From positions 4,939,843 to 5,003,842 of the forward strand of contig OZ253541.1 in NCBI GenBank assembly GCA_965262365.1: 64,000 nt of DNA, read 5' to 3'. The position numbers were made by a program, and so were the translations under genes. The notes below the pieces were generated by a model. That model was not told the DNA's origin. It worked only from the letters and a program-made list of their open reading frames with translations, and made no database searches. The DNA comes from Candidatus Rariloculaceae bacterium. GTDB lineage: Bacteria; Pseudomonadota; Gammaproteobacteria; Steroidobacterales; Rariloculaceae. The first letter of the stretch is position 1. Every line of letters starts with the position of its first letter. This document shows, one piece after another, positions 37,341 to 60,470 of this stretch.

Positions 37341-40115
37341 CTACCGCGCGCCGCCGCCGGATTCCACCTCCCGCCCGAATTCGTCGATCTCAACCACCTC
37401 GCCAATCCCCAGCGCGCGCACGTCCTCCTCGAACAGCGACAGATCGCCGGCGATCACCCACGTCAGGCGGTCCGGATGAATGATGTCGCGCGCGGCAGCG
37501 TGCACCTCTTCCAGGGTCACGTCCTCCAGCGCTTCGGCATAGCGTAGCGGGTAGTCCCACGGACGCCCCATCTCGGCGCTGGACAGCAGGCTGTTGAGCA
37601 GCGCACGGCCGGTTTCGAACCGGCCTGCCAGCGAGCGCACACGCCGCTCCCGCGTCTGGTTGAACTCTTCGGGCGTGGCGGGCCGGGCGCCGATGTATTC
37701 CTCGAGTTCGCGCTGGATCTCGGTAACCGCCTCCGCCGTCCTGTCGCCCTGTACCGGCGCGCTCACCATGAAAATCGGCTGGAACCGATCGGTAGTCAGG
37801 AAGGAGCCTGCGCCGTAACTCCAGCCCTTGTCCTCGCGCAGATTGAGATTGATGCGCGAGACGAAGCCGCTGCCGAGCACTTCGCTGGCGATCGTATCGG
37901 GCACGTCCGGTTCGACGGACGTCGCCGCCGCCGGGTAACCGGCCAGTATCACGCTCTGCGCGGACCCCGGCATGTTCACGAGGAACACCCGCGGACCCTC
38001 CGGCGGAGGCACCTGAGCAACCGCTGGCGCCGGGGCGTCCGGCACCGCACCGGCGGACGGATTTTCCGTTTCATCGACCGTCCAGTCTGCAAACCCGTCC
38101 GCCAGCCACTGTGCCAGATCGTCCATGGTCACGTCACCCACCGCGAACACCGTGAACGGCCGTCCCTCGATTCGGGCCGCGTGGTAATCCGCCACGTCGG
38201 CGCGGCCGATGCCGCGCACCTGTTCTTCGGTGATCTGCCGGCCGTAGGGATGCTCCGCGCCGAACACCCGTTCTTCCAGCGCCGCCCGGGCGATGGCGTT
38301 GGGTTGCGTCCTGCGCTGCTGGATTTCGGTGACGCGCCGTTCGGTCTGCAGCGCGAGCTGGTCCTCGGGGTAGGTGGGGTTGCTCAGGATATCGGCCGTC
38401 AGGGCGATGATCTCCGGCAGATTCTCGGTCAGTCCACCGGCCGTCAGGTTGCTCGAGAGGGTGCCGCCGGTCGCCCTGATGAAGGTGCCGAGTCGTTCCA
38501 TCTCGGTGCTGAGTTCCGCGGCGTCAAGGGAGGTCGTCCCGCTGTTAAGCTGCTGGAAGGCGAATTCCGTGATGCCCCGATCTTCCGAGGCCTCGCCCGC
38601 GGAGCCTACCTCGAACCGCAACACCAGATCCGTCACCGGAAGCACTTCCCGCCGCGCGAGCACCACCCGAATGCCGTTGTCCAGCTCACGCTCCTCGACC
38701 TCGGGAAAGCGCAGCGACGCGGCCGCCTCTACTTCAGGCAGGCGGCTGCGGTCCGCCTCTCCGGCGGCAGCGCTGGATCTGGCCGAAAACGGCACGCCGG
38801 TCAGTTCGTAGTAGGGGCGCGTCAGCCACTCGTTGGCCAATGCGGACAGTCCCTCGGAGGTCGCTTCCTGGACAGCCGCGATGGGCTCCCTGAACCGTCC
38901 GGGGTTGTTCGCGAAGACGGCGCCCGTGATCAGCGCCTCCGCCTTGGAGGACACGGTTTCGTAGTTGCGGGTGATGCCCGTCAGGCTCTGCGCCCGCTGC
39001 CGCTCCAGGCGTTCGGGGTCCGGCCCGGTGACCAGGAATTCCGCCAGCGTCTCGTCGAGGACGCGGCGCGCCTCCTCCACATCCGCGTCGGGGAGCAACT
39101 GCACGTCGATGCTGAACACGCCGGTAAGCTCATAGTCGATGGGCGAGGCCTGGACGAAGGATGCCAGGCGATGCTCCTCGACCAGGGCCCGGTAAAGCGG
39201 TGCGGTGCGGCCCCTGGAGAATGCGCTGCTCCACAGCGCGAAACCCACCGATTCGCGGGACGTGGACGGAATCGCCCAGGAGCGCCGTATGAAGCCGCTG
39301 GCAGCCTGATCGTGGATCACCTCGTGGCGGTTCTCGGTCAACTGCGGAACCCACCGGGCGATGCGGGTGAGGGGCTGCCCCGCCGGCGCATCGGCGTAGT
39401 ACTTCTCCATGAGCGGCCGGGCCGTGGCCATGTCGATGTCGCCGGCCAGCACGATGACGACGTTGGAGGCGCCGTAGTAGGTGTCGAACCAGTCCTTCAC
39501 GTCCGCAAGCGTGGCGGCGTCCAGGTCTTCCATGGAACCGATCACCGGATTGCGATAGGGGTGGCCGGGGGAAAACAGTCCCCGGAATACCACGTCCCAT
39601 ACGCTTCCCCACGGCCGATTCTCCCCCTGCCGCTTCTCGTTCTGCACCACGCTGCGCTGCTCGTCCAGCGTCGCCTGATCGACGGCGCCGAGCAGGTGGG
39701 TCATGCGGTCGGATTCCAGCCACAGCATGCGTTCCAGCGCGCCGGTGGGCACCGTCTGGAAATAGGCGGTACGGTCGAACGTGGTGGTGCCGTTGATGCC
39801 GGTCGCGCCGACTTCGCTGAGCGGCCCGAAGTAGTCCTCGTCGTGGTTCTCGCTGCCCTGGAACATCAGGTGCTCGAAAAGGTGCGCGAAACCCGTCCTG
39901 TTCTCCGGTTCGTCCTTCGAGCCCACGTGATACCAGGTGATCATGGAGACGATGGGCGCCTTGCGGTCGGTGTGGACGATGACGCGCAGGCCATTGTCGA
40001 GGGTGAACTCCTCGTAGGGGATGTCGATGTCGTCGAACTCGATGGCGAACGCCGTGGGTGCGGCCGTCAGGCTCGCCGCGGTCGCGATGAGTAAACGTAG
40101 AATCCAGTCTGGCAT
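37341..40115 (-). CDS. M16-family zinc peptidase, double-unit (PqqL-like), secreted
   Basis: 924 aa with a signal peptide, GFAHLFEHLMFQGSENH (HxxEH) and a second inactive M16 half. Confidence 0.85.
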   Translation of the reverse strand: MPDWILRLLIATAASLTAAPTAFAIEFDDIDIPYEEFTLDNGLRVIVHTDRKAPIVSMITWYHVGSKDEPENRTGFAHLFEHLMFQGSENHDEDYFGPLSEVGATGINGTTTFDRTAYFQTVPTGALERMLWLESDRMTHLLGAVDQATLDEQRSVVQNEKRQGENRPWGSVWDVVFRGLFSPGHPYRNPVIGSMEDLDAATLADVKDWFDTYYGASNVVIVLAGDIDMATARPLMEKYYADAPAGQPLTRIARWVPQLTENRHEVIHDQAASGFIRRSWAIPSTSRESVGFALWSSAFSRGRTAPLYRALVEEHRLASFVQASPIDYELTGVFSIDVQLLPDADVEEARRVLDETLAEFLVTGPDPERLERQRAQSLTGITRNYETVSSKAEALITGAVFANNPGRFREPIAAVQEATSEGLSALANEWLTRPYYELTGVPFSARSSAAAGEADRSRLPEVEAAASLRFPEVEERELDNGIRVVLARREVLPVTDLVLRFEVGSAGEASEDRGITEFAFQQLNSGTTSLDAAELSTEMERLGTFIRATGGTLSSNLTAGGLTENLPEIIALTADILSNPTYPEDQLALQTERRVTEIQQRRTQPNAIARAALEERVFGAEHPYGRQITEEQVRGIGRADVADYHAARIEGRPFTVFAVGDVTMDDLAQWLADGFADWTVDETENPSAGAVPDAPAPAVAQVPPPEGPRVFLVNMPGSAQSVILAGYPAAATSVEPDVPDTIASEVLGSGFVSRINLNLREDKGWSYGAGSFLTTDRFQPIFMVSAPVQGDRTAEAVTEIQRELEEYIGARPATPEEFNQTRERRVRSLAGRFETGRALLNSLLSSAEMGRPWDYPLRYAEALEDVTLEEVHAAARDIIHPDRLTWVIAGDLSLFEEDVRALGIGEVVEIDEFGREVESGGGAR

Positions 40116-40169: not shown

Positions 40170-43100
40170 GTGGCACTCTACTCAGAATGAGCCCCGCCAG
40201 GCCGATGGCAACGCCTGTCTCATCATGGGCGCGGGCCTGCCTACCATCGCATCGATCCGCGGAGTTGAACGGCGTGTTGGGTCTGCCCGCGCCCGTCTCC
40301 GCATCGCCGCCGTCGTAGCGCAGGCCGGCCTCCACGGTGGGACGCAGCGTGCCGCCCCAAACGGGCAGGCTGCCCGAACCCTCCAGGAGTACCCGCACCC
40401 GGCTGGTCGCGCCTTGCGCGGCCGCCAGCCCCTGCACCGCTTCGGAGTCCGTCTGCGTGAGCAGCGCGTCGGAACGCAGGGCCAGTTCGAACCGGCCGCT
40501 TTCACCCGTGCGGGCGGAAACCAGGCTGCGGCCGCCGAACGCCAGCATTCGATTCGACAGGTCCGTCTCGAGCGCGGATTCGGCGTCTTCGGGCTCAAGC
40601 TGCATCCGCCCGCCGCCGTAGCCGATAACGCCCCACAGGCTGGTCGTGTCGTTCAACTCGTAGTGGGCATAGGGATTCAGGCTCGTCAGCGTGCTTTCCA
40701 GGGACCCGCCGGCCGGGCGAGCGTGACTTCGAACACCAGCACCGCGTTCGGTCCTTCGTCAACCCGAGCGTCCGCCACCGACAGCGTCTGCCCGGTCCGA
40801 TGGACGATCACGGATCGCGCCTCGGTGAGCAGGCGGTCATCTACAGTACAGATGGCGCCGGTCTGATCGCACGCCAGATCCACGACCGGGGCAACCGTCA
40901 CCGGCTCCTCGGAGTCCGCCATTACGCTTATCGTCCACTCGTGGGCGAGATATTCCCCTTGCCGGTCCCGGATATGCTGGATCGTCTCGATGGAGCCGTT
41001 GGTCACCGTGAAGGCATGTTCGATCAGGTTCGCTTCGCCGATGACCTCGATGAGGTCCACGGCTTCGCTGAACTGCAGGTGGACCTCGAATTCGCTGTCG
41101 CTGCCGCCGTGCGCGTCCGGAATCATCGACCAGTCCGCCGTGAGGTCGGGTTGCTCGATCTGCCCGTCGACTACCGCGGCTCCCTGGTGCGCCAGGTCGA
41201 CCGCCGGCCCACTGACGCTGTTGATCTGCCCGCCGTTGAGCGCGAGGCTGTCGGCCACCAGCGCGATGTGGCGAACCGGGCTCTCGTCCGCCGTCACCAG
41301 GTGTTCGAATACCAACGTATCCTCGTGGGCCACGTGCGAGAACAGCGTGGACAGCTCCGTGGTCTCCGCCTCCGACTCCCCGAGAGTGAGCGTGACGCCG
41401 GGCACGCCATCGGTCGTTTCCACGCTGACACGTTCGTCAAATTGCAGTGTCACGCGGATCGGTTCGCCCGCGGTCCACTCGCCGTCGCGGTCGCCATCGT
41501 TCTGAATTTGCGACATTGTGACCTGCGCCCGGCGGGCCGGTTCCGGCGCGGAGGTGTCGCAGTCCACCTCGTCGGAGGTGTCGCGCCGGAACGAGCCTGA
41601 AGCCTGGTTGCCCACGGCGGTCTCCCCATGGGTCACGACATCGGCTGGAACGCTGATCGATACGGGCGAGCCCCACACGCGGGGGGTGATCCGCACCCGG
41701 TATCCCAAGAGCGTGTCGTGAGGCTGATCGACCAGTTCCGCCGTGGCGTTCGCGAGCGCCAGGTCGCTTTCGACGTTGAAGCCGTCGACGGGCTCGTATC
41801 TCAGGTACTGTGCGCTCGCCGTCGTGAAGCCGATGGTCAGGAAGAAGGACCCTTCCTCGTTCTCCGGTGTCGCCGGATCGTCGAAGTCGCGGCAGATGGT
41901 CTCCGGCACCGAGGTATCGCCGGACAAGCCGCTTGCCCCGGCGGTCACCACCGTGCGCAGCGGCTTCGACGAATCGGCCAGCACAGCCTCGGCGACGTTC
42001 GAGACCAGCCAGGCGCCGGCGTGACTGGCGCGCATCCTGAATGCATAGCGCTGGTTGCTGCCGATCGAAGCGGTGCGAAAACCAATGCCGTCCTCGCAGT
42101 CGACCTCCGACGAGCCGCTGCCGATGGATTGCCAGGTCAGGTCGCCTGAATCTCCGGAAGCTGATTCAGACACAGGGCTCGTTGCCACTGCAATGGCGCT
42201 GAGTTCGCTTGCAGTTACGCCGTCGGGAATCCAGCAGAGGTCGATGGACGGCGTCGCGTCGGTGGTGGCGTCGGACATGGAGTCGCCAGAGCCCTCGGTC
42301 ATCGAGTCGCTCGTATCCTCGGAATTCGAATCCGTTGAGTCCTCGGAAGTCCGGGCGGTGGCCGTCAATCCGTCTGCCATGGCCGTTGCCGTCACCCGCA
42401 GGAAACCGGATGGCAGCCCGGCGCCGTTCTCGCCCACGGCCGATACGCGATATCGCCGCGTTTCGGCAAAATTCAGGCCGACATCGTGTCGGAAGGAGGC
42501 GACGGTGCTCTCGGTATTGTCCTCGACCGCTGTCCAGGTCAGATCGACGTGAGTCGCCGTGGCCGTGGCGCTCAGACCGCTCACCTGCGCGGGCAGCGAA
42601 TCCTGCGACTGGACCTCGTTGTCGGAAATGGTCACCGTGAGTTCGCCGCCCGTGAAGTCGTCGTAGTCGCCGCCCTCCGCCGCATGGGAAACGACCGCCG
42701 AGTCGTGGTACGCGTCGTCGTCCTCGGCCGCGGAGAGCGTCACCGTCTGCGCCGTATCCCAATCGGCCGACGTGAAGGTGAGGCTCGACGGCTCGAAAGT
42801 CACGTCGGGGCTGCCGGTCACCCCGGGCGTCAGCGTCACGGTGTCCGTCGGCTCGGTATCCAGCACCGCGGTGTAGGTGGCGCTCGCGCCCTCGGCCACA
42901 TCGTCGTCGATCGGCGTAATCGTGAAACTCACGGAACCGGTTGTCTTTCCCGCATCAATCGTCAGCGTCTGGTCCGCCACGGTTTCGTAGTCGGTACCCT
43001 CGGTTGCGGAGTCGCCGGACGTACCCACCCACACCGGCACGACCGTGTCCGAGGCCCGCGGAATTCCGTTCAGCGTCCCCGTCACCGTGACAGTCTGTGC

Positions 43101-43781
43101 CCCACCGGACTCTTCCACCGCACTGGTCCCGCCAAGTATCAGCGCAGTTGAGGTCGTAAGGTAGTCTTCTGCGGTCACTGAAACGCTGTCCGCCGCCACC
43201 GAGCCGTAGTCGCCCCCGGTCACCGTGTGGCTTATCGTTGCGGAATCGTCAACCGTGTCCGCGTCATAGCCCGCGGTCACGGTCACCTCCTGCGCCCTGT
43301 ACCAGTTGCCGGTCGTGAAGGTCAGCGCGCCCGACACCGTCACGTCCGAACTGCCGGACACCGACGGCGTCACCGTCACCGTTCCGGTCGGTTCGGATTC
43401 CAGCGCCACCGAGTAGCCTTTCGTCCAGCCCTCGCTGATTTTCAGGGTGGTCGGTCCGACCCTCACGCCCCGGGTGTCGTTGTCGGTGATGGTCACGGTC
43501 GACTCGATGGTCGAGTTGTCTCCGGCGAAAGCCCCGTTGGAGGGATTTGAAAGCTGAATCTTGAACGTCTCGCTGTTCTCGTCCACGTCGTCGTCGCGGA
43601 TGGTCGCCCGAATGCGGCCGATTCTCGACCGGGCGGCTATCGTGAGGGTGCCGTCGGTCAACGAATAGTCGCCGTCGTCCTTCTTCGCGGTGCCGTCGAC
43701 GCCGCTGCTGCAAGCACCAGCGCAAGACAGCATCGCACGCGGGGAATCTCGATTGCCGCGGGCAGCACAATCGACATTCAT
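40170..43781 (-). pseudogene. Calx-beta/FN3-rich autotransporter-type adhesin, 5'-truncated and frameshifted
   Basis: The ORF 40686..43781 has no signal peptide and starts inside a Calx-beta unit (IRDDDVDENSETFKIQLSNPSNG). After a frame change near 40690 the reading continues LNPYAHYELNDTTSLWGVIGYGGGRMQLEPED..LRSDALLTQTDSEAV..VRVLLEGSGSL..TVEAGLRYDGGDAETGAG, an autotransporter beta-barrel. That decays again before reaching a normal C-terminus. Confidence 0.65.
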
Positions 43782-44320: not shown

Positions 44321-46381
44321 ATGAAAGCCACGAGCCCATCCATGAAACCGGCATCCACCCGCATAGCAGCATTGCTCGCCCTTTCCCTCGCATCCGGCGT
44401 GACGCATGCGCAAGACGAGACGGCGACCTACACCATGACCTTCGAGGGGCTGTGGACGGCCGACGACATCACCGATGCCGGCATGCCGGGCGGTGCGCAC
44501 TTCACCGAAATGATCGGTGCCACGCACAATTCCGGCACGACGATATGGGTGTCCGGTGGCACGGCCAGCGCCGGAGTCGAGAATGTCGCCGAACTGGGAA
44601 GCGTGGGCACCCTGGTCAGCGAGATCGGTGGAAACGCCAACGCCGCCGGCGTCGTCCGGGCGGGGAGTGCCTTCATCAGTCCGACAGCGACGGTTTCCGG
44701 CACGTTCACCGCGAATTCAAGCCATCCCCTGGTCTCGGTCCTGTCCATGGTCGCTCCCACGCCGGACTGGTTCGTCGGTGTCTCCAACCTGAGACTGTAC
44801 GACAACGGTTGGCAGAATCGGGTTGTTGACCTTTATCCCTACGATGCGGGGACCGAGGAGGGTTCCGGCTGGTCGCTGAGCAACGCGGCCACAAGTCCGC
44901 AGGGCGTCATCACAAGCATCCGCAACACGGGCAGGTTCCGCGGCAACCCCATCGGCAGGCTCAGTTTTACGACCGATCAAACCACCGACAACGGGCAAAC
45001 CACCGGCGGGGGCACGGTGTCCCCTGTGGAGCCTCCGGTGACGATCGAGCCGCGTTCGATGCATTACACGGTCCCGTTGCTGGTTCCGTCGGGCACATCG
45101 GGCGGAGCCCTGGGGGTGCTGCGAATCCTCAACGCCACGGCCGAGACCGGACCGGTGGACATCTACGCCATCGACGATTTCGGTACCCGCAGCGGTCCGG
45201 CCACGTTCACGCTCGGCGCCTGGGCGGCGGCGGAGTTCACGGCCTCGGACCTGCGGTCCGGCAACGTCCTGCTGGACTTGGCCGGCGGCGTCGGCCCCGT
45301 GCGCGATGCGCGACTTCTGATCGGCACGGACCTGCGGATCGTGCCCCTGGCCTATGTCCGTGCCGCCGACGGCACGCTGAGCGCGATGCACGACACGGTG
45401 CGATCGGCGTCTGCGGACGGCTCGGGGCAGTACCGCTACGAAGTCCCGGTCTTCAATCCTTCCACCGAGACGATCCAGGCGAGCCGCCTGCGGTTGATCA
45501 ATCCGGGCGACGAGCAGGCCTCGGTCACGATCGGCGCACGCGACGACAGCGGTGCGGCGGCCACCGGCGGAGACGTGACATTGACGCTGGCGGCAGGCGC
45601 CGCAAAGACCCTGACGGCGCAGCAGCTCGAGGCCGGTGACAGCAGCATCGCGGGCCGGTTGGGCGCCGGGGTCGGCAAGTGGCGGCTGAGGGTGTCGTCG
45701 GATCGGCCTCTGCAGGTCGTGAACATGACCGCTTCCACCGCCGGGTACTGGAACAACCTTTCCACGACCGCGGTGGCCGGTGCGGCGCCGGCGGATCTGG
45801 CGGCGCTGAACGAGCGCGTCGTTGGCGAGAATGTCGTCTACGAGACGAACACCGGGCAATTCACGCTCAACGCCACGGAGGGCGGGCGGTTCACGGAGAC
45901 GGGCGACATCGACGGCGTCGCGACGAGCTTCATGGGCAGTTACGGCTATCGGGCAATCGGGCCCGATGCGGGCCGGCTGACGCTGATGTACGACGACGGC
46001 GATGCATGCCGGGCCAACTTTTACTTCTCGTCCCGGACGAACGGCTGGTTCGCATCGCACTGCACCGGCAGCGATGACCCGGACGGATTCTGGCTGGGTG
46101 GCAACTGGTCCATTACGGTGAACCGAGCTTCAACGGAGCCGGGTTCCCTTGGCGAGTGCTACGCGGGACTGCTTGTGGGCATCGGGCAGAGCTGCACGTA
46201 TCCCGGCACGACGGACGAGTTCAGCGTCAATGTACGGGGCCGCGGATCGTTCCTGACATTCCTGGCCGGTATCCGGATCCGGGTGAACAACCAGACGATC
46301 AACGGTCGTGTCTACGACTTCGAGGCCTCGCATCGGGGGGAAGGCGTGTGGCGGATCGACCGGGTGGCCGGCAGCACCTGA
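44321..46381 (+). CDS. secreted Spondin_N-domain protein with two copies of an unnamed module and a Cys-containing C-terminal module
   Basis: Signal peptide MKPASTRIAALLALSLASGVTHA (alternative ATG at 44342). YTMTFEGLW..GGAHFTEMIGATHN..VSVLSMVAPTPDWFVGVSNLRLYDNGWQ..YPYDAGTEEG is the spondin N-terminal pattern. Confidence 0.75.
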   Translation: MKATSPSMKPASTRIAALLALSLASGVTHAQDETATYTMTFEGLWTADDITDAGMPGGAHFTEMIGATHNSGTTIWVSGGTASAGVENVAELGSVGTLVSEIGGNANAAGVVRAGSAFISPTATVSGTFTANSSHPLVSVLSMVAPTPDWFVGVSNLRLYDNGWQNRVVDLYPYDAGTEEGSGWSLSNAATSPQGVITSIRNTGRFRGNPIGRLSFTTDQTTDNGQTTGGGTVSPVEPPVTIEPRSMHYTVPLLVPSGTSGGALGVLRILNATAETGPVDIYAIDDFGTRSGPATFTLGAWAAAEFTASDLRSGNVLLDLAGGVGPVRDARLLIGTDLRIVPLAYVRAADGTLSAMHDTVRSASADGSGQYRYEVPVFNPSTETIQASRLRLINPGDEQASVTIGARDDSGAAATGGDVTLTLAAGAAKTLTAQQLEAGDSSIAGRLGAGVGKWRLRVSSDRPLQVVNMTASTAGYWNNLSTTAVAGAAPADLAALNERVVGENVVYETNTGQFTLNATEGGRFTETGDIDGVATSFMGSYGYRAIGPDAGRLTLMYDDGDACRANFYFSSRTNGWFASHCTGSDDPDGFWLGGNWSITVNRASTEPGSLGECYAGLLVGIGQSCTYPGTTDEFSVNVRGRGSFLTFLAGIRIRVNNQTINGRVYDFEASHRGEGVWRIDRVAGST

Positions 46382-46487
46382 CCGCCAGCACGGCGCCGTT
46401 CCTCCTGCCTGCGCACGCTCGTTGGGCGCCGCCGTCTCTCCCCGATCCGGTCTGGAAGAACCCGATTGCTTTTCATACCATACCGCT

Positions 46488-48137
46488 GTGCACCCTTTGA
46501 AGCGTTCCTCACTTCGGATTGCCGCACTCGCGGCCCTTGTGCTGTGGGGTTCGGCCGCGCTGGCCGAGCACTACACGCTGCCGCTGTTCGTGACGTCGAC
46601 GACGGCCGGCACCACCCAGGGCGTGCTGCGGTTACTCAACGACACCGGGGAATCCGGCTCGGTCGAGATCCATGCCATCGACGATGCCGGCACTCGCACC
46701 GGTCCGGCCACCTTCACACTGAACGCCTGGACGGCGGTGGAATTCGATGCCTCGGAGCTTGCCTCCGGAAATGCCATGAAGGGGTTGTCCGAGGGACTGG
46801 GCACCCTGTCCGGCGATGTGCGTCTGGCGATCGAGACGGAGTTGCAGATCGTGCCCTCGGCGTATGTTCGCGCGGGCGACGGCACGCTCAGCGCGATGCA
46901 CGATACCGTGCGCGCCAGCGTCGCCGCAGGGGGAGGGGGCGGTTACAGGTACCTGGTGCCGATCTTCAATTCCGCGTCCGAGGTCACGCAGGTGAGCCGG
47001 TTGCGGTTGATCAATCCGGGGGCTCGGATCGCGTCCATCACCATTGAGGGCCGTGACGATACGGGCACCGCGGCCACCGGGGGAACCGTTCAACTCACGG
47101 TGCCGGGGGCGGCGCCGGTGGATCACGAGGCGTTCAACGAGCGCTTCGGCGCAAGCGGGATCGAATACCGGCGGGGCAGCGACCGCGTCACTTACATGAC
47201 ACCGGCGTCGGACCGGTTCACGGAGACGGGCGAGTCCGGCGGTGTCGCGTTTACCAACATGGGCAGCGATTGCTATCCGGGCCTATTGGTGCGGATCGAG
47301 GGGAGTTGTACGTATCCCGGCACGACCGACGAGTTTACCGTCAACGAGCGCGGAAGGGGCCGGTTCCTGACGTTTCTGGCCGGTATCCGGATCCGGGTCA
47401 ACAACGAGACCATCGACGGCCGTGTCTACGACTTCGAGGCCACGCACCAGGGTGACGGGGTATGGCGGATCGATCGGGTGGCCGGCATGACCGAGGTGCC
47501 GAGCTTCGGTGCGGCAGCGAATCCGGGGGACCGGACTTACATGGAAGGCGCCGCGATCGATCCGCTGACGCTGCCGGAGGCAACCGGCGGCAACGGCCGG
47601 CTGACGTACGGCCTGTCACCCGATGTACCCGGGTTGAGCTTCATCGCAAGCATGCGCCAGCTTACCGGCACGCCGTCGACGGCGGGCATTTACGACATGA
47701 CCTACACCGTGACCGATGCAGACGGCGACACCGATACGCTCGGCTTCACCATCACTGTCGAGGCAGCCGAAGACGAGGGTAATGGTGGCGGTGGCGGCGG
47801 TGGTGGCGGCACGGGTTCTGCGGTCACGGTGGAAAACGGGAGTTGCAGGGGTACGCGAACGGGTGCCTCAACTTTTAGCGTGCAAATGAGCGGTACCGTT
47901 CGGGCGCATCGTGCAGTGTCAAGCGTCCGGGTCCTTGGGTATGTAAACGGCTTGCTTCTGGGCGCAGACTCGCTGGGCGACATTCCGGCCGGAGGTACGA
48001 GGAACTTCTCCATCTCCGGCGACCTTACGATCACCGCGAACAGGATCTCCTCCTGCAACGCCGACATCCATTTCCTGCCCGCGGGCTCGGAACCAGGCGG
48101 CGGCTCGGTCAGCATTGACTTTGGTACGCAGCTTTAG
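46488..48137 (+). CDS. secreted protein: two unnamed modules + Cys module + He_PIG/cadherin-like Ig + Gly-run + C-terminal domain
   Basis: There is no ATG. A GTG at 46488 (or TTG at 46497) gives ..KRSSLRIAALAALVLWGSAALA. LTYGLSPDVPGLSFIASMRQLTGTPSTAGIYDMTYTVTDADGDTDTLGFTITV is He_PIG-like. Confidence 0.65.
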   Translation: MHPLKRSSLRIAALAALVLWGSAALAEHYTLPLFVTSTTAGTTQGVLRLLNDTGESGSVEIHAIDDAGTRTGPATFTLNAWTAVEFDASELASGNAMKGLSEGLGTLSGDVRLAIETELQIVPSAYVRAGDGTLSAMHDTVRASVAAGGGGGYRYLVPIFNSASEVTQVSRLRLINPGARIASITIEGRDDTGTAATGGTVQLTVPGAAPVDHEAFNERFGASGIEYRRGSDRVTYMTPASDRFTETGESGGVAFTNMGSDCYPGLLVRIEGSCTYPGTTDEFTVNERGRGRFLTFLAGIRIRVNNETIDGRVYDFEATHQGDGVWRIDRVAGMTEVPSFGAAANPGDRTYMEGAAIDPLTLPEATGGNGRLTYGLSPDVPGLSFIASMRQLTGTPSTAGIYDMTYTVTDADGDTDTLGFTITVEAAEDEGNGGGGGGGGGTGSAVTVENGSCRGTRTGASTFSVQMSGTVRAHRAVSSVRVLGYVNGLLLGADSLGDIPAGGTRNFSISGDLTITANRISSCNADIHFLPAGSEPGGGSVSIDFGTQL

Positions 48138-48176
48138 AAGTTGGCGCCGCCATCGATGCGGCACGTCACTCCGACG

Positions 48177-50212
48177 TCACTCCACCACCTGCAACGCTTC
48201 CCGCAAAACCTCCACGCCCTGTGCGTCCAGGATCACCGCCTGGCGTACCGGTCTCGTCGGGACCGGCGTGCGGGCCGCCCAACCCGCCTCGCCACCATCG
48301 CTGAGAACGTTGATGGACAGCGGCTCCCGGTAGAGCTCCACGCCGTCCCCGTCAAACAGGATCAGCGTAAACGGCCCTTCAGGATCTGGTGCTCTGGGCC
48401 CCCTGTCGGTGCTTTGGGCGTGCGCTGTGCCGTACCGCCCGATTGCGTAAACGGTTGCACGCCGAGCGTGCCCGTCGCTGAGCGGGTGCGACGCCGGTAG
48501 TTCAGTGCGTTTCGATAGTGATAGTCGGACACAAACGCATACTGGCCGCAATAGGACATCAGATCCGTGTGTCCCTCGTCATCGTTCGAAACGAATCGCC
48601 GCCAGTTCACATCCCATCCGGCGTGCGGCCCCAGCCCACCGTCAGCGTAGGGATAGCTGAAGTCGACAGATGTTGCGCTACAACCCGGCGTATGCTGCAA
48701 ACCGAAGTTGTGTCCGAATTCGTGAGGAATCACATTGGGCGAGGAGATCGTGCTCACAGCCACATTGCCGGACAATTCCGCGAGGCCGGCGGTTCGCGCA
48801 GCACGCGCATCGTCCCCCAGCCACGGCCAGATGAACACGCCGTGGTACCGGACATCAGGGATCGGGCATCGACAGTCGGCGGCTCGTCACCGGGAAAATA
48901 CAGGGGGATGAACGTAACCCGAAACGGCGACAGTTCGTCGCCGTATAACCGGATCGGCTCGCCCGTGTTGTCGTCCTCGTTCGTCTCGGCAAGTTCGTCG
49001 TCGGCGCGGCCTGGTCGAGACGTTCGGCAAGCACGCTGCCCTGGCTGTCCAGCACGCGTGTGATGACCAGGGGCGGCTCCGATACTTCATGGTCGATCCT
49101 CACCGCCAACGCCGCCCAACGGCCAGGGACCGGCCGCTGACGCTCCCGGGGGGCGCCTCGCCAGTCCCACTCCCACACCAGCGGTCCCTGATAGTAGGAA
49201 ACCGAATGGTGAGTTGCATTGCCGTTGTCCGCGGCGTTTCCCGACCAGACCGGTCGCATGCTGACTTGCGGGGGAGGTTCGAACCCGCGAATCGCATTTC
49301 CGTCGTGCCGCAACACAAGTTCGCGGCGCGCGATGCGCTCCCAAAGAGCCCGGGGCACAGTTCCCGTCAATCGATTGGATTGCACGTACAGTCCGCTCAA
49401 GAAGGCCGGATTTGCGAGTTCCGGAGGAATTGATCCGGTCAACCGATTGCCGGAGAGGTCCAGGGTCTGCAGGTTGGCCAGATTTCCGAGCTCCCAGGGA
49501 ATCGGCCCCGACAATCGCTGACCAGACCGGGGTTTCTATCCGGATCCGTCACATAGCTGCCGTCGCCGCACCGCTCGAGTGTGCGCGCCGTGTCCGGCTC
49601 GCTGTCACAGTGGTCGCTCACGCCATCGCCGTCGGCATCCTCCGGACCGCCGACGCACGGGTCCAGAAACCACGGTCGTGTCGAACTGGTGGACAGATTG
49701 GTCAGGTGCCCCGCGGTGTCTTCCACCAGGCTCATGACCTGGATGCCCCGATCGGCCTGAACGGCCAACCGCCACCCGCCTTCCCCCTCTCCGAAGCTCC
49801 CGCTCAGCCCCCTGGCGCCGTCCTGGAGGGATTCGGCGCTCAGGGATGTCGAGGCACCTGAGGCCAGGGAAAGGCTCACCGCTCCCTCCGGCGCCTCATC
49901 GCCGGCATCGTCCCATGCCCGGATCTCGATCTGCGCGGCCCCCTCGGACGGATTGATCAGCCGCACCGCACTGCCATCCGGGAGACCGCTGTCGGGCGCC
50001 AGCGGCTCGATATCCAGCGACGTGTCCAGGACGAGCCGCCAGTCGCCCTGACCGGTGCCGATGCGAACCATTCCTTCGCGCAAGGCATCGGATACCGATG
50101 GCAGCAGGGGAAGACGGTAGGTGTCCGCCGAGGTATCGAGCGGCATGAAGAACAAGAGCACCACCAGGGCTCCGACGCCTGTGTGTCGATGAAATGCTCT
50201 TTTTTCACCCAT
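48177..50212 (-). pseudogene. multi-frameshift gene: signal peptide + unnamed module + TSP3-like + plant-type LRR + HExxHxxGxxH zinc metalloprotease
   Basis: Four successive frames. 49439-50212: signal peptide, module, DADGDGVSDHCD. 48855-49514: LSGPIPWELGNLANLQTLDLSGNRLTGSIPPEL. A third frame around 48840-48990: FRVTFIPLYFPGDEPP. 48362-48838: VIPHEFGHNFGLQH. 48177-48551: C-terminal domain. Confidence 0.7.
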
Positions 50213-51455: not shown

Positions 51456-51487
51456 CAATTCAGAGCGAAGGTCGCCTATATCTCCGC

Positions 51488-51693
51488 CGGATGACTCCCG
51501 TAGTAGATGCGCAACCGCCAGGCATCCAGATTGCCCGTGTCGTCCTCGGCGCCGTCGAAGACCTCGATCTGCCAATCGCCGTTCGGGTCCTCGCCGCAGA
51601 ACGCGTTGCTCAACAGGCGCCAGCGAATCTGCTCGAGATCGTTCACGGCATGGAGAGCGCCAAATGCGGCCATTGCTTCGAGTGCATGATTGA
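51488..51693 (-). pseudogene. proprotein-convertase P-domain-like remnant, dispersed repeat copy A
   Basis: The minus strand encodes HALEAMAAFGALHAVNDLEQIRWRLLSNAFCGEDPNGDWQIEVFDGAEDDTGNLDAWRLRIYYGSHP. It is near-identical at DNA level to 59624-59960, apart from a roughly 140-bp internal deletion. Confidence 0.6.
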
Positions 51694-51800
51694 GTTCCAT
51701 GGGTGAGATAGCCAATGGTTCAATTATGCTATGTAATAATCGTGTTAATTCACTCTGTTTCGCAGAACGACAGAAGTCTGCAGACTTGGGAGGGAGACCC

Positions 51801-53699
51801 ATGAGCAATGGCCGCTGCACGCGTGGAAATCCGTGGGCGCGTATCTTTGTCGCGCTTTATGTCCTTGTTCTGGCGTACGGCTGTTCGGCGCCCCAGGTCA
51901 TCGATGTGGATTTCAGCGTTCTCGACCCCGAGCAACAGGCGGTGGAAGAGAACGCGCTGATACGTCCGGGCTCCACGTTGACACTGAGCAGCATTACCGC
52001 CATCAGCAGCGACGGCACGCAAAGCACCCTGGCGGAGTCCGACGAGTACATCGTGACGGTTCTGGGTGGAACCTATGACGCCGCGACCCGCGAAGTGCAT
52101 TTCAGCGAAGTCCCCGCCGACGTGCCTCCGCAAGGCTACGAAGTGGCGATCCAGCACGCTGACGGTGTCGGCACGGTCATGCGTTTCACACCGGACTTTG
52201 CCGGCATCCATGGGCCGGAGCCGGGCGATGTGGTGTCCTTCGAAGTGAACCTGGAGTGGAGTCGGGACGGCCAGAGGTATTCCATTGGCGAAGGCACGCC
52301 GCTGATCCCCGGCGAAGCCTACAGCCTTCATGCGGTCGCCCGGGATACCCTGGGGCGCACGTTCGAAACCGGCAGCGACAGCAACACGATTCCCGCCGAG
52401 CGGCTCGCCACGACGCTGGCAAACCTGACCGCCGGTGGTGACGACGGGTCCATGCTGGTCGCAGGCAGCGGCGCACCAGGCCAGGAATACCGTATGGAAG
52501 TGCGTTACGGCGGCGACGAGAGGCACGCCATAATCCTCGAATTCCCCCTGGATCCCGCCATCTCCCAGGGCCCGCAACCGCAAGCCGTTACCCGCGTGGA
52601 AATCCTCGGCGAACTGAGCGATGGCGCACCCATCCGACCCGGCGATGCAAAGCCGCTGCAGGTGCGGGTAGCGGACATCCGCGGCCGAACGTGGCTGCTC
52701 GATATGGATGGCGGCGGTTCCCACGCGGACAATCAATACCGGCTGCCGCCTTCGCGCCTCCAGGTTCTGGTGGAGAACGGGGTCTACGACCAGGGCGCCG
52801 GGCGGGTTCAATTCGACGCCGACGCCGAAGCCATGCTGGAAATGACCTACGGGTTGGAGGTGAGATACGACTCGGACCCGTTGCTGGCCGACGCAAGGGA
52901 ATACCAGCCGGACTTCCTGGCCGTCGTACCGCTCATGGAAACGGACGAACTTGTCTACGCGGGACAGGATGTTCGCGAGGGGCAGTCGGGCCAGAGTGGC
53001 CAGAACGGCGCCCGCGGCAACGACACCAACCGCGAGATGGGCCGCGGAGGCGGCGGTCGCAACGGCGGCAACGGCACCAACGGTCAGACGGGCGCCCGGG
53101 GCGCCGTTGGCCCGAGTCTGCGTGTGGTCGCCCGCGAGGTGCGCACCCTGGACTCGGAGACGCGTCTGGCGCTGTTTGAAGTGCGCGTGCCGGGCGCGCC
53201 GCCGGAGTACTACCTCCGCGCAATGGACGATTCCCCGGTCACTATCGTCAGCCGCGGCGGCAGCGGCGGCACCGGCGGCGATGGCGGCGATGCCTATTTC
53301 TCGGGTTCCGGCGGCGATGGCGGTGCCGCGGGCAGCGGCGGTGACGGCGGTGACGGCGGCAATGGCGGCAACGTCGTATTGATCCTTGCTTCCTTCGACC
53401 TGGAAGGCGTGTTCGTTCTGGACAGCCGGGGCGGCGGTGGGGGCCGGGGAGGCGCCGAGGGCGTTGCTGGCCGTCCCGGCAGTCCGGGCTCGGTGGGCAA
53501 CTGGAATGAGGCCGATATCCCCAGGGATCAGGTCATGCCGGAAGTCGGCGCGTACGGCAATGAAGGCAACATCGGCCACACTGGGCGTGACGGATTCGAC
53601 GGTCAACCGGGCACTGTGGAGTTCATTGTCGAGGAAGAACAGGCGGGGGCGCTGGTGAGGCGCACGCCGGTGGGCATACAGACCGTGATACTCTTTTGA
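51801..53699 (+). CDS. lipoprotein with three beta-rich repeats and a collagen-like/Gly-rich C-terminal third
   Basis: RBS GGGAGGGAG precedes the ATG at 51801. The signal RIFVALYVLVLAYGC has a lipobox. The Gly-rich tail includes GQSGQSGQNGARGND..GGNGTNGQTGARGAVGP..GGSGGTGGDGGDAYFSGSGGDGGAAGSGGDGGDGGNGGNVVLIL..GGGGGRGGAEGVAGRPGSPGS. Confidence 0.65.
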   Translation: MSNGRCTRGNPWARIFVALYVLVLAYGCSAPQVIDVDFSVLDPEQQAVEENALIRPGSTLTLSSITAISSDGTQSTLAESDEYIVTVLGGTYDAATREVHFSEVPADVPPQGYEVAIQHADGVGTVMRFTPDFAGIHGPEPGDVVSFEVNLEWSRDGQRYSIGEGTPLIPGEAYSLHAVARDTLGRTFETGSDSNTIPAERLATTLANLTAGGDDGSMLVAGSGAPGQEYRMEVRYGGDERHAIILEFPLDPAISQGPQPQAVTRVEILGELSDGAPIRPGDAKPLQVRVADIRGRTWLLDMDGGGSHADNQYRLPPSRLQVLVENGVYDQGAGRVQFDADAEAMLEMTYGLEVRYDSDPLLADAREYQPDFLAVVPLMETDELVYAGQDVREGQSGQSGQNGARGNDTNREMGRGGGGRNGGNGTNGQTGARGAVGPSLRVVAREVRTLDSETRLALFEVRVPGAPPEYYLRAMDDSPVTIVSRGGSGGTGGDGGDAYFSGSGGDGGAAGSGGDGGDGGNGGNVVLILASFDLEGVFVLDSRGGGGGRGGAEGVAGRPGSPGSVGNWNEADIPRDQVMPEVGAYGNEGNIGHTGRDGFDGQPGTVEFIVEEEQAGALVRRTPVGIQTVILF

Positions 53700-55262: not shown

Positions 55263-55410
55263 TGGCCGAAACCGGTCGATGAAATCCGTGCCGTCGCGCA
55301 CCAATGATCACCCGCGCGCATATCACCCGCCGTGCCTTGCATCCTTTCGGATCGTGCCGCAAACAGGTACCCGGCCTTCGGACAGTTTCTTCCACCGGCT
55401 TGCGCCCGCT

Positions 55411-55529: not shown

Positions 55530-55610
55530 GCAGTACGGAGCCTCCCACCGGAGCTTATGGCCTCTCTTGCAGGGACGGTTGAATGTCCAGGCTCCCGAGA
55601 ACAACCGGCG

Positions 55611-55909: not shown

Positions 55910-55947
55910 CGACCGATTCGAGACAAACTGGAAGTTTGCGCCCCAGG

Positions 55948-60076: not shown

Positions 60077-60280
60077 ACTATAGCGCACGGCATCGGAAAA
60101 TTTGCGGAGCCGGACTTGATCCTGGCGTAATACCCGCAATGCGCCGACACCGTCAGAGCGCCTAGACCAATGATCAGGGCTACGCATACTGCGTCAGATA
60201 GGGAACCCGACCAGTCCGGTCTGGATGAATCCGATTGATTGTCATACCATGTCAGCCACGAGCCTACCCGCGTTAGTAGG

Positions 60281-60470
60281 AGACTGTACGACAACGGTTG
60301 GCAGAATCGGGTCGTTGACCTTTGTCCCTACGATGCCGGGACCGAGCCGGTGGATATCTACGCCATCGACGATTCCGGTACCCGTATCGGTTCGGCCACC
60401 TTCACGCTCGGCGCCTCGGCGGCGGCGGAGACGTGGCATCGTTCCTGACGTTCCTGGCCGATATCGACAG
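60281..60470 (+). pseudogene. collinear three-segment mini-copy of the Spondin_N/module gene
   Basis: 60281-60345 matches 44793-44858 (RLYDNGWQNRVVDL.PYDAGTE). 60346-60428 matches 45149-45231 (PVDIYAIDD.GTR.G.ATFTLGA.AAAE). About 60435-60470 matches about 46243-46278 (SFLTFLA). The frame is kept across the first junction only. Confidence 0.75.

What the first reader, a model, noticed from the sequence alone, without database searches (positions are those of the whole stretch)
44321..50212. Unnamed tandem module shared by three neighbouring secreted proteins, each fused to a different eukaryote-type domain
Three adjacent genes carry the same roughly 100-120 aa module, usually as a tandem pair.

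Module sequences:
- First-half form: HYT(V/L)PL(L/F)V...G(A/T).(G/Q)VLR(I/L)LN.T.E(T/S)G.V(D/E)I(Y/H)AIDD.GTR(S/T)GPATFTL.AW.A.EF.AS(D/E)L.SGN...L.(G/E)G(V/L)G...(D/G).RL.I(G/E)T(D/E)L.IVP.AYVRA.DGTLSAMHDTVR
- Second-half form: YRY.VP(V/I)FN(P/S).(T/S)E..Q.SRLRLINPG...AS(V/I)TI.(A/G)RDD(S/T)G.AATGG.V.LT
- The first gene continues: LTAQQLEAGD..GRLGAGVGKWRLRVSSDRPLQVVNMTASTAGYWNNLST
- The pseudogene on the minus strand keeps a recognisable copy: RLINPSEGAAQIEIRAWDDAGDEAPEGAVSLSLASGAS..LSAESLQDGARGLSGSFGEGEGGWRLAVQADRGIQVMSLVEDTAGHLTNLSTS

Fusion partners differ between the three genes: Spondin_N; He_PIG/cadherin-like Ig; TSP3 + plant-type LRR + zincin.

I cannot place the module in any named family from memory. 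A private module shuffled onto host-matrix-type domains is the best candidate in this window for an undescribed surface or host-interaction system.
Basis: partly seen in the sequence, partly recalled or inferred. Interest (0 to 1): 0.7.

Follow-up and report, generated by a model that had tools for sequence, protein, structure and literature searches.

The report
ASRT-like sandwich pair in secreted proteins
The repeated module is real, but it is not private to this genome: it is a paired beta-sandwich domain of the little-studied ASRT/DUF5719 superfamily, which thousands of secreted proteins of marine bacteria carry as a constant part joined to very varied enzymes and adhesion domains.

Summary
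Genes A (44321-46381, +), B (46497-48137, +) and pseudogene C (48180-50212, -) share a ~115-aa module with two alternating forms, m1 and m2. The two forms are homologous (hhalign E 3e-31).

The module can be placed. [quoted passage not shown] These two proteins founded the ASRAH superfamily. Pfam DUF5719 matches the module below threshold in the window and above threshold in some relatives.

The family is large: 3,378 clusters at 50% identity. Members carry a strict dyad or tetrad joined to about 60 partner families, including LRR, cadherin, reprolysin-like and PPIase domains. Neighbouring genes are not conserved.

Close relatives sit in Ca. Rariloculaceae, other Gammaproteobacteria, Bryobacterales and Rhodospirillales MAGs. 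These look like sponge symbionts, but that is inferred.

In the window only A is intact. B has two in-frame deletions. C is a frameshifted wreck whose tetrad has collapsed.

The most likely role is a ligand-binding (probably glycan-binding) targeting or anchoring unit. This is inferred, not shown.

Verdict: a new variant of a known kind, of moderate interest.

The parts
44321..46381 (+). Gene A, intact, 686 aa: signal peptide, Spondin_N, linker, m1, m2, 'mid', 'ct'
   Evidence: ORF. Pfam Spond_N E 1e-35. NF038123 E 4e-28. Full-length orthologues at about 81% nucleotide identity in L001-L007. dN/dS 0.25-0.59 by region, 0.25-0.54 in the folded domains.
44423..44926 (+). Spondin_N domain of gene A (aa 35-202)
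   Evidence: PF06468, 123.9 bits.
45059..45406 (+). Module copy A_m1 (aa 247-362), first-half form
   Evidence: BLASTP. HMM domain E 2e-44. AF2 model pLDDT 94.8.
45428..45772 (+). Module copy A_m2 (aa 370-484), second-half form
   Evidence: Pfam DUF5719 21.7 bits, below threshold.
45773..46144 (+). 'mid' domain of gene A (aa 485-608): an unnamed ~120-aa domain with two invariant Cys that follows the dyad in most close relatives
   Evidence: jackhmmer finds it in 86 frames or proteins, sometimes repeated. No Pfam hit. No significant PDB hit.
46145..46378 (+). 'ct' domain of gene A (aa 609-686): an unnamed ~77-aa Cys-pair domain
   Evidence: 81% identical to B aa 321-395. Found in 42 frames or proteins. 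No meaningful PDB hit: the best matches are designed beta-trefoil proteins, E 3e-4 with no single stretch passing on its own.
46497..48137 (+). Gene B, 546 aa from TTG 46497: signal peptide, m1, half of m2, truncated 'mid', 'ct', He_PIG, C-terminal Ig-like region. The reading frame is open but two in-frame deletions are present.
   Evidence: the L015 orthologue is 705 aa; aa 219-287 and 347-416 are missing here. He_PIG 28.1 bits.
46566..46916 (+). Module copy B_m1
   Evidence: 64% identical to A_m1, E 8e-39. HMM E 4.5e-48.
46941..47111 (+). Module copy B_m2, N-terminal half only (strands 1-4); the C-terminal half is deleted
   Evidence: Intact in P0022 and in the L015 orthologue.
47268..47492 (+). 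'ct' domain of gene B
48180..50212 (-). Gene C pseudogene: remains of a protein of about 1257 aa (signal peptide, m1-m2-m1-m2 tetrad, TSP3-like motif, LRR, M66-like zincin, C-terminal domain)
   Evidence: tblastn with the intact L015 orthologue gives five pieces in frames -1, -3, -2, -1, -3 with gaps between them. Pfam LRR_1 and Peptidase_M66 on the pieces.
49967..50125 (-). Remnant of module 1 of gene C (start and end of the domain; 55 aa and 29 aa deleted in frame)
   Evidence: Alignment to the L015 orthologue. HMM fragments.
49679..49966 (-). Chimeric module of gene C: the start of module 2 fused to module 4 at 'RLINP'
   Evidence: 44% identical to A_m2, E 1e-13. DUF5719 20.4 bits.
60280..60430 (+). 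Deletion remnant of a second gene-A-like copy: the end of Spondin_N joined directly to the m1 core
   Evidence: blastn: 95.5% to 44791-44857 and 89.6% to 45140-45235. Module HMM E 6e-8.

Best explanation
**What the module is.** It is a ~115-residue beta-sandwich domain of the ASRT-like (ASRAH) superfamily, on a branch that Pfam partly captures as DUF5719.

**How it is arranged.**
- It exists in two alternating forms, m1 and m2.
- It is used as a fixed pair (dyad) or double pair (tetrad), apart from a few proteins with 6-8 copies.
- The domains appear to pack rigidly against each other.
- The block sits directly after the signal peptide, at the C-terminus, or internally, in secreted multidomain proteins.
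- It is the one constant element joined to highly variable 'payload' domains: proteases, PPIases, LRR, cadherin/Ig-like domains, and Spondin_N here.

**Most likely role (inferred).** The dyad or tetrad forms ASRT-like clefts between paired domains. These clefts would bind a ligand, probably a carbohydrate and possibly an acidic one. That would target or tether the payload to a glycan-rich surface: either the bacterium's own envelope polysaccharide or the host/extracellular matrix.

**State in this window.** The family is decaying. Gene A is intact and under moderate purifying selection. Gene B has lost half of one domain. Gene C is a frameshifted, repeat-collapsed pseudogene. A further fragment lies 10 kb downstream.

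**Shown:** homology of the copies, the fold, the family size, the dyad/tetrad pattern, partner diversity, and the decay.

**Inferred:** ligand binding, the glycan nature of the ligand, the anchoring role, and the sponge-symbiont habitat.
For: **Homology of the copies:**

**Fold**
- The dyad model has pLDDT 94.8 and pTM 0.90.
- The tetrad model (P0168) has pLDDT 89.7 and pTM 0.85. Such high pTM values for 2- and 4-domain chains imply fixed packing between domains.
- In Foldseek against the PDB, the only probability-1.00 hits are ASRT and TM1070. These are 2ii7/2ii8/2ii9 (target-normalised TM 0.61-0.78, rmsd down to 3.0 A) and 1nc7 (TM 0.61).

**Sequence links**
- The m1 profile's top PDB hit is ASRT (E 0.063). 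In that alignment the module's near-invariant Asn falls on the ASRT Asn. Its invariant Arg falls on the ligand-contacting Cys of the ASRT strand-2 signature (signature from PMC2739507).
- Pfam DUF5719 hits 39 of 60 close homologues (best E 6.6e-8) and 16 of 36 tetrad proteins. One of these, P0127, scores 36.3 bits against a cut-off of 26.2.
- Pfam ASRT (PF07100) and PLipase_C_C hits occur in some members.

**Dyad/tetrad pattern**
- m1-m2 in 83 of 120 close homologues.
- Four modules in 145 of the 150 best representatives, as m1-m2-m1-m2 in 110 of them.
- Two or four modules in 50 of the 68 module-bearing frames in 37 loci; most of the rest are short or cut off at a locus end.
- This matches the published remark that ASRAH domains occur as dyads or tetrads, mirroring the ASRT tetramer whose clefts are walled by the dimer interface.

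**Constant part with variable payload**
- 64 Pfam families appear as partners in 36 proteins. Further partners are listed.
- The block is N-terminal in 54, C-terminal in 61 and internal in 35 of the 150.

**Other points**
- Polar and charged residues are invariant across sequences only ~35-60% identical: R, N, DD-G, LE-G, G-G-G-W, N-S.
- Selection: dN/dS is 0.25-0.49 in the modules of A.
- Decay.
Against: - No ligand, binding assay or localisation exists for any secreted member, so the glycan-binding idea comes from a 2009 computational paper.
- Sequence-only links to ASRT itself are weak (E 0.063; Pfam ASRT hits in very few members).
- Window proteins score below the DUF5719 cut-off (13-22 bits against 26.2).
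- I could not inspect model coordinates. The ASRT-like packing of the dyad and tetrad is therefore inferred from pTM alone.
- No glycosyltransferase or other carbohydrate gene is consistently nearby, unlike the actinobacterial family.
- dN/dS of 0.3-0.5 is only moderate constraint.
- The frameshifts in gene C could in part be assembly errors. The large in-frame deletions are not easily explained that way.
Confidence: 0.6

Rival explanations
1. The module is a passive Ig-like spacer or stalk, like the Big, CARDB or invasin domains of bacterial adhesins. It would only hold the payload away from the cell and bind nothing itself.
For: - Weak Pfam hits to Invasin_D3 (E 0.002-0.014), PapD_C, Big_1 and ASH.
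- Foldseek also lists the Ig-like domains of GH2 enzymes and SGBP-B at E about 1e-3.
- Many partner domains are themselves Ig-like.
Against: - Spacer repeats usually vary freely in copy number. Here the number is 2 or 4 in almost all complete proteins, with alternating m1/m2 forms.
- The high pTM indicates a compact block rather than beads on a string.
- Charged and polar residues are invariant.
- Probability-1.00 fold matches go only to ASRT/TM1070.
- The block is often at the extreme C-terminus, where a stalk makes little sense.
Confidence: 0.17
2. The module is mainly an oligomerisation device. Dyads would dimerise, and tetrads fold back on themselves, to rebuild an ASRT-like four-domain assembly. 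This would make the payloads bivalent or rigid, with no small-molecule or glycan ligand.
For: - ASRT and TM1070 are tetramers, and ASRAH domains come as dyads or tetrads.
- The dyad/tetrad pattern holds here.
- The tetrad model has a high pTM.
Against: - It does not explain the invariant Arg at the ASRT ligand position or the conserved DD-G / LE-G loops.
- It is not exclusive of ligand binding, because the ASRT clefts lie at the interfaces.
- No multimer prediction could be run.
Confidence: 0.15
3. The module is a secretion or sorting tag, or an intramolecular chaperone or pro-domain for the attached enzymes.
For: - It is the only constant part of many secreted proteins.
- In the dyad subfamily it begins one or two residues after the predicted signal-peptide cleavage site.
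- Many partners are proteases.
Against: - Its position is N-terminal, C-terminal or internal in comparable numbers.
- Many partners are not enzymes, for example LRR, cadherin and Spondin_N.
- No secretion-system genes are linked to it.
- At 230-470 aa it is far larger than the sorting tags I know of (from my own knowledge; not compared here).
Confidence: 0.05
4. One reading: a private, unnamed module specific to this organism that defines an undescribed host-interaction system of three co-operating genes.
For: - No Pfam or NCBIfam model reaches threshold on the window proteins.
- The B-C-A cluster is conserved in related MAGs (L002, L005, L015).
Against: - There are 3,378 clusters in public data, in several phyla.
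- The fold and the Pfam DUF5719/ASRT links place the module.
- Two of the three genes are damaged here.
- Elsewhere the genes stand alone in unrelated neighbourhoods.
Confidence: 0.03

Closest known systems
ASRT (Anabaena sensory rhodopsin transducer, PDB 2II7) and Thermotoga TM1070 (1NC7), the ASRAH superfamily of De Souza, Iyer and Aravind 2009 (PMC2739507)
   Same: - Same beta-sandwich fold (Foldseek probability 1.00, target-normalised TM 0.61-0.78).
- Conserved Asn closing strand 2.
- Assembly in twos and fours.
   Different: - ASRT and TM1070 are ~125-aa single-domain cytoplasmic proteins that form homotetramers.
- Here the domains are covalently linked, differentiated into m1 and m2, secreted, and fused to large payloads.
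- The His/Cys ligand residues of the ASRT signature are replaced. An invariant Arg stands at the Cys position.
- Sequence similarity is marginal (E 0.063).
Pfam DUF5719 (PF18986). Probably the actinobacterial cell-surface lipoprotein family with ASRAH dyads described in PMC2739507; this equation is my inference.
   Same: - It is the Pfam model that most often matches the module (39/60 and 16/36 members).
- Module matches map to three separate zones of the 319-position model, so DUF5719 is itself built of such repeats.
- It is extracellular.
   Different: - Window proteins are below the cut-off (13-22 bits against 26.2).
- There is no lipobox Cys after the signal peptide.
- The hosts here are Gram-negative or Acidobacteria.
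- There is no linked WhiB, glycosyltransferase or inactive zincin neighbourhood.
- The module is fused to many payloads instead of standing alone.
C-terminal domains of bacterial phospholipase C (PLipase_C_C, PF05506; e.g. PLC-N, PDB 9GY2)
   Same: - Weak Pfam hits in 10 of 60 members.
- Foldseek E about 2e-3.
- It is an accessory beta-sandwich attached to a secreted enzyme.
   Different: - No significant score on the window proteins (13.3 bits against 24.4).
- It is restricted to one enzyme family.
- Its function is likewise unknown.
Surface-anchoring or carbohydrate-binding repeat modules such as SLH triplets and CBMs (functional analogy only)
   Same: - A constant, fixed-number repeat block attached to many different extracellular payloads.
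   Different: - No sequence or fold relationship was tested or claimed.
- Ligand binding is not demonstrated for this module.
Eukaryotic-like proteins of sponge symbionts (LRR, cadherin, fn3, Sel1, TPR and similar classes)
   Same: - The window and related MAGs are rich in such domains: Sel1, TPR, LRR, Calx-beta, FG-GAP.
- Several family members fuse the module to LRR, cadherin or fn3.
   Different: - The module itself has only prokaryotic relatives in the searches made here.
- Many partners are ordinary bacterial enzymes.
- The sponge habitat of these MAGs was not verified with the tools.

Membership tests
ASRAH superfamily (ASRT-like beta-sandwich; PMC2739507) | Eight-stranded beta-sandwich with the fold of ASRT (2II7) and TM1070 (1NC7) | tested here: met
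   - The AF2 models have 8-9 strands per domain.
- Foldseek gives probability 1.00 to 2ii7/2ii8/2ii9 (target-normalised TM 0.61-0.78) and to 1nc7_B (0.61).
- Strand-by-strand topology was not checked, because no coordinates were available.
ASRAH superfamily (ASRT-like beta-sandwich; PMC2739507) | Nearly invariant Asn at the end of strand 2, followed by an ungapped tight turn | tested here: met
   - The Asn of 'LRLIN' / 'VRIIN' is invariant in A3, A4 and A5 and at least 90% conserved in A2.
- It aligns to the Asn of ASRT 'CILN'.
ASRAH superfamily (ASRT-like beta-sandwich; PMC2739507) | Conserved Trp after a polar residue at the start of strand 1 | tested here: inconclusive
   - The module has Tyr, His or Phe there (HYTVP, YRYEVP, consensus xHxVPxF), not Trp.
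- The alignment to ASRT did not cover strand 1.
ASRAH superfamily (ASRT-like beta-sandwich; PMC2739507) | Multi-domain versions occur as dyads or tetrads | tested here: met
   - Dyad in 83 of 120 close homologues.
- Four modules in 145 of the 150 best representatives.
- Two or four modules in most complete frames.
ASRAH superfamily (ASRT-like beta-sandwich; PMC2739507) | Statistically significant sequence-profile link to ASRT homologues | tested here: inconclusive
   - ASRT is the top PDB hit of the m1 profile, but at E 0.063.
- Pfam ASRT PF07100 hits 1 of 60 members at E 2.6e-4 and is precomputed on P0273 and P0300.
- No HHpred-type comparison with an ASRT alignment could be run.
Pfam DUF5719 (PF18986) | Whole-protein score at or above the gathering cut-off of 26.2 bits | tested here: not met
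   - Window proteins: B 18.9 bits, C 20.4 bits, A dyad 21.7 bits.
- The cut-off is met by some tetrad relatives, e.g. P0127 at 36.3 bits.
Actinobacterial ASRAH lipoprotein family (PMC2739507) | Lipobox Cys after the signal peptide, family-specific N- and C-terminal extensions, and linkage to WhiB, a glycosyltransferase and an inactive zincin | tested here: not met
   - There is no Cys at or after the predicted cleavage sites of A, B or C.
- Neighbours are Calx-beta, M16 peptidase and DUF4143 genes.
- The other contexts examined are unrelated.
PLipase_C_C (PF05506) | Score at or above 24.4 bits; C-terminal to a phospholipase C or phosphoesterase domain | tested here: not met
   - 13.3 bits on A.
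- No phosphoesterase domain is present.
Spondin_N / NF038123 domain proteins (gene A only) | Pfam PF06468 at or above 24 bits; NCBIfam NF038123 at or above 40 bits | tested here: met
   123.9 bits and 98.9 bits.

The most novel reading that the evidence does not exclude
The m1-m2 dyad and the tetrad would be a previously unrecognised class of carbohydrate-binding or anchoring module. It would be an intramolecular copy of the ASRT tetramer, with clefts lined by an invariant Arg that bind acidic or sulfated glycans. Marine and sponge-associated bacteria of several phyla would exchange it horizontally and use it to pin dozens of different enzymes and adhesion domains to their own envelope or to the host matrix.
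Probability: 0.25. Interest if true: 0.6.

Novelty: new variant of a known kind. Interest (0 to 1): 0.4.

Why it matters
- If the dyad/tetrad is a targeting module, it would give a handle on thousands of uncharacterised secreted proteins of marine Gammaproteobacteria and of likely sponge symbionts.
- It would provide a first functional context for Pfam DUF5719.
- It would extend the ASRT superfamily, whose founding member is still of debated function, to a large extracellular branch.
- Close relatives at 56-63% identity occur in Gammaproteobacteria, Bryobacterales and Rhodospirillales MAGs. This hints at gene exchange within a shared habitat.
- For this particular window the practical message is more modest: one intact gene, one damaged gene, one pseudogene and a fragment. 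That is a decaying paralogue family rather than a working three-gene system.

Tried and rejected
- **Direct sequence searches on the module found nothing.** phmmer of the dyad against PDB sequences returned no hits. NCBIfam has no model for the module.
- **One search form failed.** The search for related loci with alignment A1 failed for lack of a conserved stretch. The single-protein form was used instead, which finds only close relatives.
- **Literature searches were mostly empty or wasted.**
  - 'DUF5719' and 'Rariloculus' returned 0 papers each.
  - 'ASRAH' returned only the 2009 paper among relevant items.
  - Sponge + symbiont + eukaryotic-like proteins + spondin returned 0.
  - A search on MAG name fragments returned only irrelevant papers. 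The sponge origin of the MAGs therefore rests on my recollection of the naming of those bins.
- **Cluster look-up of 10 representatives** gave almost no names.
- **No conserved gene neighbourhood.** This was looked for and not found, so the 'system' idea was dropped.
- **The 'mid' and 'ct' domains stayed unidentified.** Profile searches against the PDB gave only designed beta-barrels or beta-trefoils and one uncharacterised protein, at weak E-values.
- **Chance similarity was considered and rejected**.
- **A generic Ig-like assignment was considered and ranked low** (see rival explanations).

Full report
**1. What is in the sequence**

Window 44321-50212 holds three genes.

- **Gene A** (44321-46381, +, 686 aa). 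It has a signal-peptide-like N-terminus (MKATSPSMKPASTRIAALLALSLASGVTHA|Q). A Spondin_N domain follows (aa 35-202; Pfam E 1.2e-35; NCBIfam NF038123 E 4e-28). Next come a Thr/Gly/Pro-rich linker and two copies of the reported module: m1 at aa 247-362 and m2 at aa 370-484. About 200 further residues follow.
- **Gene B.** It most likely starts at TTG 46497 (MKRSSLRIAALAALVLWGSAALA|EHYT). After the signal peptide it runs straight into m1, then half of an m2, then a region shared with A. A He_PIG domain (28.1 bits) and an Ig-like tail complete it.
- **Gene C** (minus strand). It is broken into several frames that carry module remains, an LRR stretch and an M66-like zincin with HEFGH.

**2. Is the repeat real?**

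Yes.

- BLASTP among the copies gives E 8e-39 (A_m1/B_m1, 64% identity), 4e-14 (A_m2/B_m2) and 1e-13 (A_m2/C_m2, 44% identity).
- The two forms are weakly similar to each other (33% identity, E 0.006).
- Profiles of m1 (A2, 31 sequences) and m2 (A3, 36 sequences) built from homologues match each other at hhalign probability 99.9%, E 3.3e-31 over 110 columns. So m1 and m2 are two differentiated versions of one domain.
- An HMM built from the window copies found no other copy in the 64 kb, apart from a short frame at 60239-60445 (E 6e-8).

**3. What the module is**

*Models.*
- An AlphaFold2 model of the A dyad, built with 60 aligned sequences, has mean pLDDT 94.8 and pTM 0.90. It shows two all-beta domains of 8-9 strands, each with a short helix.
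- A model of a four-module relative (P0168, 531 aa) has pLDDT 89.7 and pTM 0.85, although it has a 47-residue disordered leader.
- Such pTM values for multi-domain chains imply a fixed mutual packing. I could not inspect coordinates, so this is an inference.

*Fold matches.*
- In Foldseek against the PDB, most hits are low-probability matches to Ig-like domains of glycosidases.
- The only hits with probability 1.00 are the ASRT chains 2II7/2II8/2II9 (target-normalised TM 0.61-0.78; best rmsd 3.0 A over 101 columns) and Thermotoga TM1070 (1NC7, TM 0.61).
- These two proteins founded the 'ASRAH' superfamily of De Souza, Iyer and Aravind (PMC2739507).

*Sequence evidence points the same way but is weaker.*
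- The m1 profile's best PDB hit out of 177,635 sequences is ASRT, at E 0.063. In that alignment the module's conserved Asn matches the Asn that the paper calls nearly absolutely conserved at the end of strand 2. The module's invariant Arg sits on the Cys of the ASRT 'SHEshChhN' signature, a residue that contacts the bound diol in TM1070 (signature).
- Pfam DUF5719 matches 39 of 60 close homologues (best E 6.6e-8) and 16 of 36 tetrad proteins.
  - One tetrad protein, P0127, scores 36.3 bits, above the 26.2 cut-off.
  - On the window proteins the score stays below the cut-off (18.9-21.7 bits).
- Module matches fall on three separate zones of the 319-position DUF5719 model. DUF5719 is therefore itself built of such repeats.
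- PLipase_C_C, ASRT (PF07100) and Slr4 are hit in a minority of members.
- NCBIfam has no model for the module.
- The literature library holds nothing on DUF5719. Apart from the 2009 paper, it holds nothing relevant on ASRAH.

**4. How large and how varied the family is**

- An exhaustive HMMER search with the m2 profile against 1.84 billion cluster representatives found 3,378 proteins at E<=1e-3 and 1,837 at E<=1e-30.
- The best 150 are 530-2,750 aa long. 145 carry exactly four modules, 110 of them as m1-m2-m1-m2; a few have 6-8.
- The block is N-terminal in 54, C-terminal in 61 and internal in 35 of these 150.
- In 36 of them Pfam finds 64 other families. These include LRR (8), Calx-beta (5), FGE-sulfatase (4), cadherin (4), PKD, fn3, CARDB and reprolysin-like.
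- A second search with a tetrad profile lists at least 2,629 proteins. Partners there are reprolysin-like proteases, PPIases, subtilases, RHS, PSD domains and others. The few named entries are MAGs of Pseudomonadales, Gammaproteobacteria or Pseudomonadota.

*Close relatives of the window dyad.*
- There are 137 hits, and m1-m2 is the arrangement in 83 of the 120 listed.
- In species-representative genomes they occur in MAGs of Ca. Rariloculaceae/Rariloculus, unclassified Gammaproteobacteria and Pseudomonadales. They also occur in Bryobacterales at 56-63% identity. Named hits include Rhodospirillales and Acidobacteria.
- Several paralogues occur per genome. OZ241971.1 has at least 8 module genes across L002, L017 and L022.
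- From their bin names I believe many of these MAGs are sponge-derived. The tools did not let me verify that.

*The dyad subfamily has a fuller conserved cassette.*
- The order is signal peptide, m1, m2, 'mid' (~120 aa, two invariant Cys), then 'ct' (~77 aa, Cys pair).
- He_PIG and a variable tail then usually follow: LRR, CARDB, NHL, Excalibur, trypsin or PPC.
- 'mid' and 'ct' are themselves mobile and sometimes repeated. They have no Pfam match and no significant PDB match.

*Neighbourhoods.* Gene neighbourhoods of three family members on long contigs have nothing in common.

**5. State of the three window genes**

The nearest relative, L015 (87-90% nucleotide identity), has an intact B orthologue (705 aa) and an intact C orthologue (1,257 aa). 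The C orthologue reads: signal peptide, m1-m2-m1-m2, TSP3-like motif, LRR, M66-like zincin.

- **Gene B.** Against the L015 orthologue, window B lacks aa 219-287 (the second half of m2) and aa 347-416 (part of 'mid'), both in frame.
- **Gene C.** It aligns in five pieces in frames -1, -3, -2, -1, -3, with missing segments between them. Within its first piece there are three in-frame deletions. One of these joins module 2 to module 4 at the repeated RLINP motif.
- **Gene A.** It is full length relative to orthologues in L001-L007. Its dN/dS is 0.25-0.54 in the folded domains and up to 0.59 in the linker. It is lowest in m2 and 'ct'.
- **Synteny.** The B/C/A cluster is syntenic in L002 and L005, though A lies on the other side there.
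- **Downstream fragment.** At 60280-60430 there is a fragment 95.5% identical to the end of A's Spondin_N. It is joined directly to a stretch 89.6% identical to A's m1 core.
- **Caveat.** Some frameshifts could be assembly errors. The large deletions are unlikely to be.

**6. Mechanism**

*Shown:* a rigidly packed dyad or tetrad of ASRT-fold domains is the constant part of many secreted proteins with interchangeable payloads.

*Inferred:* like the ASRT/TM1070 tetramer, whose clefts are walled by the dimer interface, the paired domains form ligand pockets. Three observations favour ligand binding over a passive spacer role:
- the invariant Arg at the ASRT ligand position;
- the conserved DD-G, LE-G and G-x-G-x-G-W loops;
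- the fixed copy number.

The 2009 paper argued for sugars as ligands on contextual grounds. An invariant Arg would suit an acidic glycan.

The most economical role is therefore a targeting or anchoring unit. It would hold proteases, adhesion domains and similar payloads on a polysaccharide surface, either bacterial or host. I give the fold and superfamily assignment about 0.9 and the glycan-anchor role about 0.45. The rival explanations (spacer, pure oligomeriser, sorting tag or pro-domain) are listed with their evidence in that section.

**7. Comparison, novelty, verdict**

- **Superfamily placement.** The module works like, and by fold belongs with, the ASRAH superfamily.
  - Met: the fold, the strand-2 Asn, and the dyad/tetrad features.
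  - Inconclusive: the strand-1 Trp and the sequence-significance features.
- **What it is not.** It is not a member of the actinobacterial lipoprotein family: it has no lipobox and a different genomic context. In the window it also does not pass the DUF5719 threshold.
- **Novelty.** I found no description of this large secreted, payload-fused branch. I therefore rate it a new variant of a known kind.
- **Interest.** About 0.4. This is a sizeable uncharacterised domain family with a testable hypothesis, but the window itself shows mostly its decay.

Noticed in passing
window 60280-60430 (+), ORF 60239-60448: A deletion remnant of a second gene-A-like copy. The end of Spondin_N (95.5% identical to 44791-44857) is joined directly to the m1 core (89.6% identical to 45140-45235).
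   Followed up: yes
window 45773-46378 and 47112-47492: Two further unnamed domains are shared by A and B: 'mid' (~120 aa, two invariant Cys) and 'ct' (~77 aa, Cys pair; 81% identical between A and B). Both recur, sometimes repeated, in many relatives. They have no Pfam match and no significant PDB match.
   Followed up: partly
window 51483-51706 vs 59619-59979; 55410-55755 vs 59957-60700: Short DNA segments are repeated at 84-95% identity between the regions downstream of the cluster. They look like scars of segmental duplication or recombination. Spurious ORFs crossing them share long peptide strings.
   Followed up: partly
window 55494-56051 (+) and 60322-61485 (+): A Sel1-repeat protein (Pfam Sel1 E 2.5e-56, six repeats) has a truncated paralogue 5 kb upstream with a near-identical signal peptide and first repeat. 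Its signal-peptide DNA also resembles that of gene A (77.6% identity, 60550-60616 vs 44336-44402).
   Followed up: partly
window 51476-51820 (-): The C-terminal end of this short ORF (DGDWQIEVFDGAEDDTGNLDAWRLRIYYGSHP) resembles the C-terminal end of an 855-aa ORF that flanks the syntenic cluster in L015 (6765-9332, -). That ORF looks by eye like a subtilase, but I did not scan it. If so, this is a likely remnant of a lost neighbour gene.
   Followed up: no
window 40686-43781 (-), 32433-36024 (-), 37341-40115 (-): The upstream neighbours are a 1031-aa Calx-beta protein, two tandem FG-GAP/ASPIC paralogues of 576 aa each, and an M16 peptidase. The region is rich in large secreted or surface-type proteins.
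   Followed up: no
window 13329-15116 (+): A DDE_Tnp_1 transposase ORF (E 9e-16). Together with the pseudogenes and fragments, it fits a genome with active rearrangement and decay.
   Followed up: no
window 56535-59967 (+): A DUF1592 (PSD4) / DUF1501 gene pair. The DUF1501 ORF runs at its 3' end into one of the repeated segments, so its C-terminus is probably not native.
   Followed up: no
L009 (999-16713) and L017 (3444-16140): These loci carry arrays of four consecutive dyad-bearing genes on one strand, in Ca. Rariloculus and Ca. Rariloculaceae MAGs. This shows tandem paralogue expansion of the family.
   Followed up: partly
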